Assembly: GCF_006345805.1 (NCBI RefSeq)
Contig: NC_043000.1
Coordinates: 2,604,001-2,668,000 of the forward strand
Origin: Octopus sinensis
Lineage: Eukaryota
Reading direction: 5' to 3'
Length of the DNA stretch: 64,000 nucleotides
The translations under genes and the position numbers were made by a program. The notes below the pieces were generated by a model. That model made no database searches. It was not told the DNA's origin and was given only the letters and a program-made list of their open reading frames with translations. Every line of letters begins with the position of its first letter. The first letter of the stretch is position 1. Of the stretch, positions 8,780-10,345 are shown piece by piece.

Positions 8780-10345
8780 AAATTAACAATTGAGGATAAA
8801 ATCTTAAAAGAAATTATCAGTGTCAGCGTGAAAAACCTCATAAGAGAAAAAATCCGTAAATTCTTCCTCTTGAAAATATTCATTTATATTATATTGAGGG
8901 TACTACTATTCGTAGATACCAACACGCTAAGAGGACCAATGCGGTCAAAACTACTAAAAATAACAAAATTTTACCGAAGCAAAACTTAAAACACATCATT
9001 TTAAAACACATCATTTTAAAAAAGAATTCAGTTACATATCACATGTGATCGCATTAATGCAGAATATGCATTTCATGTTCATCAGGCAACAAACTCAAGA
9101 AATATAAGAAAACATAACATTACAAGCTCGATAGCAACCGTAGAATTCATCGTACATGTACGAATGTTTATTTTACATATCTATGAAATGGCGGGCTTCT
9201 TCGCAATGCATTGCGGTACAAATTGTCTAGTCAGAATAAAAATTCAGTATTGAACTATTCCGGTGAAAAATATAAATTAACAATTGAGGATAAAATCTTA
9301 AAAGAAATTATCAGTAGTCAGCGTGAAAACCTCGTAAGAGAAAAAATCCGTAAATTCTTCCTCATTGAAAATATTCATTTATATTATATTGAGGGTACTA
9401 CTATCGTAGATACCAACACGCTAAGAGGGACCAATGCGGTCAAAACTACTAAAATAAACAAAATTTTTTATCCTCAATGGTTAATTTATATTTTTCACCG
9501 GAATAGTTCAATACTGAATTTTTATTCGACTAGACAATTTGTTACCGAAATGCATTGCGAAGAAGCCCACCTTTCATAGATATGTAAGATAAAATTCGTA
9601 CAAGCTACGATGAATTCTACGGTTGGCTATCGAGCTTTAAGTTATGATTTTTCTTATATTTCTTGAGTTTGTGCACTGCGAACATGAAATGATATTCTGC
9701 ATTAAATGCGAAATCAATGTGATATGTAACTGAATTCTTTTTTAAAATGATGTGTTTTGAAGTTTTGATTCGGTAAAATTTTGTTTATTTTTAGTAGTTT
9801 TGACCGCATTGGTCCCTCTTAGCGTGTTGGTATCTACGAATAGTAGTACCCTCATATAATATAAATGAATATTTTCAATGAGGAAGAATTACGGATTTTT
9901 TCTCTTACGAGGTTTTTCACGCTGACTACTGATAATTTCTTTTAAAGATTTTATCCTCATTGTTAATTTATATTTTTCACCGGAATAGTTCAATACTGAA
10001 TTTTTATTCCGAGTAGGTAATTGGTTACCGAAATGCATTGCGAATAAGCCCGCCATTTTCATAGATATGTAAAGATAAACATTCGTACAAGCTACGATAT
10101 TCTACGGTTGGCTATCAAGTTTGTAATGTTATGATTTTTCTTATATTTCTTGAGTTTGTTGCACTGATGAACATGAAAATGCATTATCTGCATAAATGCG
10201 AAATCACATGTGATATGTAACTGAATTTTTAAATTGATGTCTTTTGAAGTTTTGCATTCAGTAAAATAGTAGTTTTGACCGCATTGGTCCCTCTTAGCGT
10301 GTTGGTATCTACGAATAGTAGTACCCTCAATATAATATAAATAAT
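8780..10345. repeat. Tandem plus inverted array of a ~490-bp hammerhead-bearing unit
   Basis: Unit start recurs at 8781 and 9275; reverse-complement copies run from about 9466 to 10345. Confidence 0.85.
10158..10221 (+). ncRNA. Type I hammerhead ribozyme motif (degenerate sister copies about 9670-9730 + and 9031-9090 -)
   Basis: GTTGCA-CTGATGA-ACAT...ATGC-GAAA-TCACATGTGA-TA-TGTAAC: stem I closes and stem III is palindromic; one mismatch at the base of stem II. Confidence 0.72.

What the first reader, a model, noticed from the sequence alone, without database searches (positions are those of the whole stretch)
8780..10345. 1.6-kb fold-back array with one hammerhead per ~490-bp unit
Seen: about 1.4 units in one orientation joined to about 1.8 units inverted, with hammerhead motifs at about 9031-9090 (-), 9670-9730 (+) and 10158-10221 (+). 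Two tandem ribozymes about 490 nt apart on + are the geometry needed to excise and circularise a monomer. They lie in the sense direction of the presumed IMMP2L intron. Copies differ largely by 1-nt indels, so unpolished long-read error may hide intact copies.
Basis: partly seen in the sequence, partly recalled or inferred. Interest (0 to 1): 0.75.

Follow-up and report, generated by a model that had tools for sequence, protein, structure and literature searches.

The report
Two-armed hammerhead retrozyme, Penelope-type insertion
This is one error-ridden assembled copy of an abundant, protein-free 490-base repeat that carries a predicted self-cutting RNA motif and was likely pasted into a TA tract as two head-to-head arms by a Penelope-type jumping-gene enzyme; it is a known kind of element, and this copy's own mirror-image arm is predicted to hinder RNA-circle release from a read-through transcript.

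Summary
The array is real as described: a 689-bp antisense arm (1.4 units) joined head-to-head to an 882-bp sense arm (1.8 units) of a 492-bp non-coding unit, inside (TA)n, with one type I hammerhead per unit. Only the copy at 10158-10221 has an intact core as assembled. The array's indel-to-substitution ratio is 1.56 against 0.11 in other repeats of the window, and short-read contigs from other studies carry letters missing here, so the damage is mostly unpolished read error. Those contigs show a multi-copy family, an intact core, a recurrent end beside (TA)n where the antisense arm ends, and weakly supported head-to-head joints elsewhere; none listed bridges this junction. Best reading: an animal non-LTR retrozyme copied by a Penelope-like reverse transcriptase that primed from both strands of a TA-rich cut at two start sites about 105 nt apart, on a circular or multimeric RNA. 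Cleavage, circles and expression are untested. The scan already reported this architecture many times in this genome. New member of a known kind.

The parts
8720..8778 (.). (TA)n-rich tract, left half of the likely target site
8779..9467 (-). Antisense arm, 689 bp, 1.4 units; runs from unit position 51 (inner end) through one cleavage site to about position 248 (outer end); positions counted from the predicted cut
8987..9021 (.). Local 14-15-nt duplication private to the antisense arm
9031..9090 (-). Hammerhead copy; as assembled lacks one helix I letter and two A of GAAA; contigs restore the helix I letter at 9085
9461..9467 (.). Head-to-head (5'-5') junction in a shared T-run; joins unit position 51 to about 226; not a mirror point; no listed contig bridges it
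9461..10342 (+). Sense arm, 882 bp, 1.8 units; from unit position about 226 through two predicted cleavage sites to about position 143 (outer end)
9670..9730 (+). Hammerhead copy; core broken as assembled; predicted cut after 9724; contigs restore the helix III letter at 9716
10158..10221 (+). Type I hammerhead with intact core: helix I 6 bp, CUGAUGA, long helix II with an A-C apposition at its base, GAAA, 12-nt palindromic helix III, predicted cut after 10215
10343..10380 (.). (TA)n-rich tract, right half of the likely target site; shared with the end of a second, unrelated element

Best explanation
This is one insertion of a multi-copy, non-coding 492-bp repeat with one predicted self-cleaving type I hammerhead per unit (an animal non-LTR retrozyme), likely copied into a (TA)n tract by the enzyme of a Penelope-like element. 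Shown: two head-to-head arms, each longer than one unit, no protein-coding remnant recognised, TA-rich flanks, arms ending at unit positions about 143 and 248, a family with an intact hammerhead core in independent data. Inferred: the family is transcribed from other loci, cut to monomers and circularised; a borrowed RT-GIY-YIG protein nicks both strands of AT-rich DNA and starts cDNA at two internal sites about 105 nt apart; each cDNA runs past one unit length (around a circle, or along an uncut multimer of at least 3.2 units); the two cDNAs join by their growing ends at a short T-run, which gives the fold-back. The stretch was left unpolished in the assembly, so the true copy is probably near-intact. 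A host read-through transcript would fold back on itself and is predicted to be a poor source of circles.
For: Architecture. Hammerhead far beyond chance. Core unchanged in four runs: on 10158-10221 the listed differences are at 10179, 10185, 10186 and 10192 only, all in helix II; a diverged contig (run X17, record 15, 11 differences over 10075-10174) has no listed difference in 10152-10174 and keeps GAAA in its loose end. Family: 865 contigs of X1 and 547 of X2 lie on one 525-nt unit, and overlapping pieces cover it all the way round, with the wrap joint in 4 of 4 runs. Recurrent end: two X17 contigs stop at 9966 (unit position 244) and go on in (AT)n, one X2 contig also stops at 9966; the window's antisense arm ends at 248. 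Inversions elsewhere: 4 of the 15 joints shown (of 88) join antisense to sense arm head-to-head at other positions, 2 of them in both X1 and X3; the 30 letters printed before 10075 in X17 match the antisense of 9770-9804 by eye (28 of 30, one gap). Flanks are not mirror images over 5 kb. Circular monomer folds better than shuffles (z -2.6, 60 shuffles; antisense also -2.6). Literature: partial tandem plus inverted 5'-truncated copy and (TA)n targets are Penelope-type; a purified PLE protein cuts and extends both strands of AT-rich DNA from two internal RNA sites (PMC11167929); retrozymes derive from pLTRs.
Against: No listed contig bridges the 9461-9467 junction (8 pieces shown per run). The four head-to-head joints have only 23-27 letters on the shorter side, below the tool's 31-letter standard, and one search listed no opposite-strand joint on the single unit. 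No independent copy was seen ending at position 143 (repeat-skipped; not among the 24 of 137 loose ends shown). The offset of 105 nt is longer than the published 30-40-bp tail. The base of helix II is A-C, not the conserved G10.1-C11.1 (PMC4209133), the active fold is 2.8 kcal/mol above the minimum, and 8 of 9 predicted Xenopus retrozymes did not cleave in vitro. In the purified PLE system uncut RNA was the main template, so a circle is not required. No autonomous partner was found.
Confidence: 0.74

Rival explanations
1. The unit is only the pseudo-LTR of an autonomous Penelope-like element and this is a heavily 5'-truncated insertion of it, not an independently replicating retrozyme.
For: Retrozymes are homologous to pLTRs; dual hammerheads 100-700 bp apart on opposite strands were ascribed to truncated PLEs; a decayed PLE-like RT lies at 41129-42151 of this window (label recalled, no Pfam match).
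Against: Both arms run past one unit with no coding body between units, and contigs close the unit on itself. The PLE-like remnant shares no DNA similarity with the unit.
Confidence: 0.11
2. The inversion is an artefact: a chimeric or fold-back long read, or a misassembly of separate copies, left unpolished.
For: The array is clearly unpolished; no listed contig bridges this junction; a 35-nt AT-rich mirror lies at 8720-8754 and 10347-10380.
Against: The junction is out of register by about 175 nt, the arms differ in length and end at different unit positions, and the mirror does not extend into the flanks. The antisense arm ends where independent copies end. Head-to-head joints occur in short-read contigs (weak).
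Confidence: 0.07
3. One reading: host-intron transcription releases and circularises a 490-nt monomer from this locus.
For: Two sense ribozymes 491 nt apart, probably both intact in the real genome; a coding exon on the same strand 16.6 kb downstream; co-transcriptionally the downstream ribozyme is briefly free of the antisense arm (transcript to 10230).
Against: The antisense arm pairs with 58 of 63 nt of the first ribozyme as soon as it is made, and with 57 of 64 nt of the second in the full-length fold; the upstream core is broken as assembled; the intron is presumed.
Confidence: 0.04
4. A DNA-level event: a small satellite array that gained an inversion by template switching during replication or repair, with no RNA step at this locus.
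For: T-run microhomology at the junction; tandem retrozymes may expand by unequal crossover.
Against: Only 3.2 units in all, both outer ends in (TA)n, one of them at a position reused by other copies; head-to-head polarity as in PLE insertions.
Confidence: 0.04

Closest known systems
Metazoan non-LTR retrozymes (Cervera and de la Pena 2020, PMC7229834: coral, mussel, axolotl; read: Results section and passages)
   Same: Non-coding, low-GC tandem unit with one type I hammerhead; short palindromic helix III; self-paired predicted circle; multi-copy.
   Different: Unit 492 nt against 170-400 nt there; long helix II with A-C at its base; inverted arm (the word 'inverted' does not occur in that main text); cleavage and circles not shown here.
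Vertebrate non-LTR retrozymes as PLE derivatives (Li, Clavereau, Pollet 2026, 10.64898/2026.07.22.740005; read: parts 1-3 of 5; supplements closed)
   Same: Unit length within their 51-972 bp range; few units per locus; about 43% of Xenopus copies are intronic, so an intronic site is ordinary.
   Different: They sampled no mollusc; here no pLTR partner could be sought; as assembled this copy misses their two-complete-motif rule.
Insertion architecture of endonuclease-bearing Penelope-like elements (Craig et al. 2021, PMC8557442 and preprint, passages; Frangieh et al. 2024, PMC11167929, parts 1-2 of 4)
   Same: Partial tandem, inverted 5'-truncated copy at the 5' side, (TA)n or AT-rich target, ends of unequal position, hammerhead in the repeat; Octopus Naiad and Hydra families with (TA)n preference are listed.
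   Different: No RT or GIY-YIG frame; end offset about 105 nt, not 30-40; both arms exceed one unit.
LINE-1 twin priming
   Same: Head-to-head inversion with the inverted arm's outer end close to the inner start of the other arm (22-nt overlap here).
   Different: Template is a repeated unit without poly(A); the second start appears to be a fixed site.

Membership tests
Animal non-LTR retrozyme | Head-to-tail units of a few hundred bp, GC below 50% | tested here: met
   492 nt, 31% GC; unit closed on itself by contigs
Animal non-LTR retrozyme | One type I hammerhead per unit | tested here: met
   Motif at the same unit position in 3 of 3 copies; core intact in the majority and in 4 of 4 runs
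Animal non-LTR retrozyme | Two consecutive units with complete motifs (Li et al. rule for an active copy) | tested here: inconclusive
   1 of 2 sense copies complete as assembled; differences look like read error
Animal non-LTR retrozyme | No protein-coding capacity | tested here: met
   Only one stop-free stretch of 100 aa or more overlaps the array (9187-9576, crosses the junction) and it has no significant Pfam match; no tRNA gene
Animal non-LTR retrozyme | Dispersed multi-copy family | tested here: met
   865 and 547 contigs on one unit in two DNA-like runs, with varied flanks; no copy number can be given
Animal non-LTR retrozyme | Self-cleavage of the transcript | not testable with these tools
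   Needs run-off transcription
Animal non-LTR retrozyme | Accumulation of monomeric circular RNA | not testable with these tools
   Only contigs were served; they cannot tell circle from tandem
Canonical type I hammerhead | Core CUGANGA, GAAA, UH with three helices | tested here: met
   10158-10221
Canonical type I hammerhead | G10.1-C11.1 pair at the base of helix II | tested here: not met
   A-C in 3 of 3 window copies and no other letter listed in 4 runs
Canonical type I hammerhead | Match to an Rfam hammerhead model | tested here: not met
   No match at gathering score or at E up to 10
Canonical type I hammerhead | Loop 1-loop 2 tertiary contacts | not tested
   Helix II is longer than canonical; contacts not assessed
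Autonomous Penelope-like element | ORF with RT and GIY-YIG endonuclease | tested here: not met
   None in the array
Penelope-type insertion (works like) | Partial tandem plus inverted 5'-truncated copy, in (TA)n | tested here: met
Penelope-type insertion (works like) | 30-40-bp tail between two RT start sites | tested here: inconclusive
   Ends differ by about 105 nt; the 244-248 end recurs in 3 contigs of 2 runs, the 143 end seen only here
Penelope-type insertion (works like) | Homology of the unit to the pLTR of a coding PLE in the same genome | not testable with these tools
   No whole genome held; four short unit strings absent from the one held supplement of PMC8557442, which may hold no sequences

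The most novel reading that the evidence does not exclude
One RNA circle is copied at once by both active sites of a Penelope-type RT dimer, primed from the two strands of one cut at two fixed sites 105 nt apart, each rolling past a full turn, and the two cDNAs are then fused head to head. This would be a rolling-circle, twin-primed route that explains the long-unexplained tandem-plus-inverted Penelope footprint, and it builds into each new copy an antisense arm that silences its own ribozyme.
Probability: 0.3. Interest if true: 0.62.

Novelty: new member of a known kind. Interest (0 to 1): 0.3.

Why it matters
How Penelope-like elements make tandem and inverted copies is stated to be open, and who mobilises animal retrozymes is inferred, not shown. 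A short, ORF-less, young family whose insertions record two start sites and more-than-unit arms is a clean substrate for testing circle against uncut multimer as template. My paper searches listed no paper that describes cephalopod retrozymes, but I read only parts of seven texts and the library lacks most subscription papers. This single locus adds little beyond the many like it that the scan already reported in this genome, and it is a useful caution: tandem ribozymes inside a fold-back are not a ready circle source.

Tried and rejected
No whole genome is held, so copy number, partner element and empty sites could not be examined. Rfam: no match in the window at gathering score; five chance-level non-hammerhead matches in 8700-10420. 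Free folding of the three hammerhead copies is no better than shuffles (z -0.65 to 0.11). No RNA holder listed on record; X6 and X17 are RNA by guess only and no silent control stretch was laid, so they were used as sequence data, not as evidence of expression. Best share was 0.24, so the window's own sample was probably not among them. Exact-pattern scans: 0 in viral contigs, 0 in two scans of metagenome contigs. Supplement term searches: 0 for four unit strings in PMC8557442 (Octopus rows found) and 0 for all terms in PMC13282606 (one small file). Closeness of the sense arm's inner start to the second start site: window -22; five other junctions +26, +11, +85, +103, -215; 2 of 5 within 30 nt has P 0.12, so it is not counted as support. 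Summed contig depth peaks upstream of both ends were not used; the tool says depth is no copy number. Simple fold-back read rejected because flanks are not mirrored. First automatic alignments misplaced gaps and inflated substitutions; one search replaces them. Look-ups of earlier findings by sequence or relatives returned nothing. No promoter test was made.

Full report
Observation. The window holds a head-to-head pair of arms made of one repeat unit. The antisense arm is 8779-9467 (689 bp) and the sense arm about 9461-10342 (882 bp). Both outer ends run into (TA)n. Counting from the predicted cut, the sense arm starts at about 226, passes two cut sites (9724, 10215) and ends at about 143; the antisense arm starts at 51, passes one cut site and ends at about 248. 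The junction is a shared T-run and is not a mirror point.

The ribozyme. A type I descriptor finds 10158-10221 with a 6-bp helix I, CUGAUGA, GAAA, a 12-nt palindromic helix III and a UA cut site; it finds one other motif in the 64 kb, and 200 shuffles give 0.005 hits per window. Helix II is long (about 9 pairs around an internal loop) and begins with A opposite C, where PMC4209133 calls G10.1-C11.1 highly conserved. Rfam has no hammerhead match, free folding does not beat shuffles, and the active fold of the majority motif is -8.7 against a minimum of -11.5 kcal/mol. Activity is therefore predicted only. The copies at 9670-9730 and 9031-9090 have broken cores as assembled.

Error or decay. Against the majority the copies show 25 substitutions, 25 deletion events and 7 insertion events in 1528 nt. 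Gap openings per mismatch are 1.56 in the 4 array alignments and 0.11 in 185 other repeat alignments of the same window (0.08 in the 96 at 85% identity or more). Contigs of public runs put back letters missing at 9085, 9716, 9767, 9853 and 10098, in most or all of the depth in several runs (not all rows shown). At 3.7% differences per base, one or no intact 13-nt core among three has probability 0.34. The array is best read as a young insertion left unpolished.

The family in independent data. No genome is held, so I used coded public runs. The best share of words was 0.24; I laid 5 of 24 listed runs. On one 525-nt unit, 865 contigs of X1, 547 of X2, 57 of X6 and 12 of X17 were laid, and the joint behind the hammerhead is present in 4 of 4 runs; an X17 contig of 288 nt crosses most of the hammerhead and goes on for 178 nt. 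Listed differences in 10158-10221 are confined to helix II. A diverged X17 contig has 11 differences over 10075-10174, none listed in 10152-10174, and its loose end keeps GAAA: weak evidence that the core is conserved. Two X17 contigs end at 9966 (position 244) and continue in (AT)n, and one X2 contig also ends at 9966; this is within 4 nt of the window's antisense outer end. No independent end at 143 was seen; that region was skipped as repeat, and only 24 of 137 loose ends were shown. X6 and X17 are RNA by guess only, so nothing here shows expression.

Is the inversion real? No listed contig bridges 9461-9467. For: 4 of the 15 joints shown (of 88) join the antisense arm to the sense arm in the same head-to-head polarity at other positions, two of them in two studies, but with 23-27 letters on the short side, and one search listed no opposite-strand joint. 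The letters printed before 10075 in an X17 loose end match the antisense of 9770-9804 by eye. A fold-back read should mirror the flanks; 5 kb on each side share only simple repeats and a 35-nt AT-rich mirror next to the array. The arms are out of register and one ends where real copies end. I leave 0.07 for artefact.

Mechanism. Published PLE insertions are partial tandems with an inverted 5'-truncated copy, often in (TA)n, with a 30-40-bp tail at one end. A purified PLE protein is predicted to be a dimer, cuts and extends both strands of AT-rich DNA, and starts at two internal RNA sites that define the tail. Animal retrozymes are non-coding tandem units with type I hammerheads that give circular RNA and are related to pLTRs. 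The array fits the sum: each outer end is an RT start (143 and about 248), each arm is a cDNA primed from one strand of the cut, and the growing ends were fused at a T-run. Arms longer than one unit need a circle with strand displacement or an uncut multimer of at least 3.2 units. A circle was proposed in PMC4209133; in the purified system uncut RNA was the main template. My data cannot separate the two. The sense arm starts 22 nt from the second start site, as in twin priming (recalled), but five other junctions do not establish this as a rule (P 0.12). The two-fixed-sites reading came from earlier scan notes; I tested it only for the 244-248 site.

One exon of a signal-peptidase S26 gene lies on + at 26958-27060; no upstream exon motif was found in the window, so the intron and the name IMMP2L are presumed. 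A + transcript makes the antisense arm first. Folding of growing transcripts pairs 58 of 63 nt of the first sense ribozyme with 9029-9091; the full array switches register and pairs 57 of 64 nt of the second. One of the two is always predicted to be blocked, and a 500-590-bp duplex would more likely be edited or degraded (inference). A promoter inside the sense arm could avoid this; I did not test for one. The circular monomer folds at z -2.6 against 60 shuffles, the antisense strand equally.

Comparison and novelty. It meets the sequence-level features of a non-LTR retrozyme, fails those of an autonomous PLE, and works like a PLE-made insertion; cleavage, circles and partner are untested. The octopus label comes from earlier scan notes and my recall, not from a call. 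Searches listed no paper on cephalopod retrozymes; a 2026 Octopus vulgaris repeat annotation lists Penelope-like families and has no occurrence of ribozyme or hammerhead in its main text. Papers seen: 10.64898/2026.07.22.740005 parts 1-3 of 5; PMC7229834 Results and passages; PMC4209133 parts 1-2 of 4; PMC11167929 parts 1-2 of 4; PMC8557442 and its preprint, passages and a supplement term search; PMC13282606 passages and a supplement term search. The scan has reported 474-602-nt families with the same two-armed layout in this genome; whether any is this very family could not be told (empty).

Verdict. Observation confirmed; interpretation partly supported; new member of a known kind; interest 0.3. 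The boldest reading not excluded, twin-primed rolling-circle copying of one RNA circle from two fixed sites, I put at 0.3 with interest 0.62.

Noticed in passing
window 10347-10777: A second, unrelated hammerhead-like element shares the right (TA)n tract: a 67-bp inverted arm (10347-10413), a CUGAAGA...GAAA motif at 10624 (+), and ends that differ by a short tail. Very many contigs lie on it, with opposite-strand joints at varied positions.
   Followed up: partly
window 38500-38620 (-): Second copy of that element's hammerhead region between (TA)n tracts; folds at z -2.1; both copies have an extra letter before GAAA and a weak helix III.
   Followed up: partly
window 18995-19030 (-): Minimal type I hammerhead (helix I 4 bp, extra A after the core, palindromic 1-bp helix III) of the kind described for PLE pseudo-LTRs; passes the descriptor.
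   Followed up: partly
window 41129-42151 (-), with 42460-42950: Decayed reverse-transcriptase-like frames that resemble a Penelope-like element (label recalled; no Pfam match), interrupted by other repeats, preceded by a head-to-head inverted repeat of about 100 bp arms. No DNA similarity to the 492-bp unit.
   Followed up: partly
window 26958-27060 (+): Single exon of a Peptidase_S26 gene (IMMP2L-like by recall) with clean splice sites; no neighbouring exon motif found in the 64 kb.
   Followed up: partly
window 35225-38186 and 48658-52272 (+): Two decayed LINE copies with endonuclease and RT-like frames up to 464 aa; the long open frames show that the window is well polished outside the array.
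   Followed up: no
window 22689-23540: 157-bp tandem array (5.4 copies, 95% matches) built on a 21-bp sub-repeat, strongly G-skewed.
   Followed up: no
window 62045-62692 (-): 216-aa stop-free frame rich in poly-Ala and poly-Gln over a (CTG)76 tract; may be an exon of an antisense gene or a microsatellite.
   Followed up: no
window 53052-54936: 1.9-kb (AT)n/(AC)n microsatellite.
   Followed up: no
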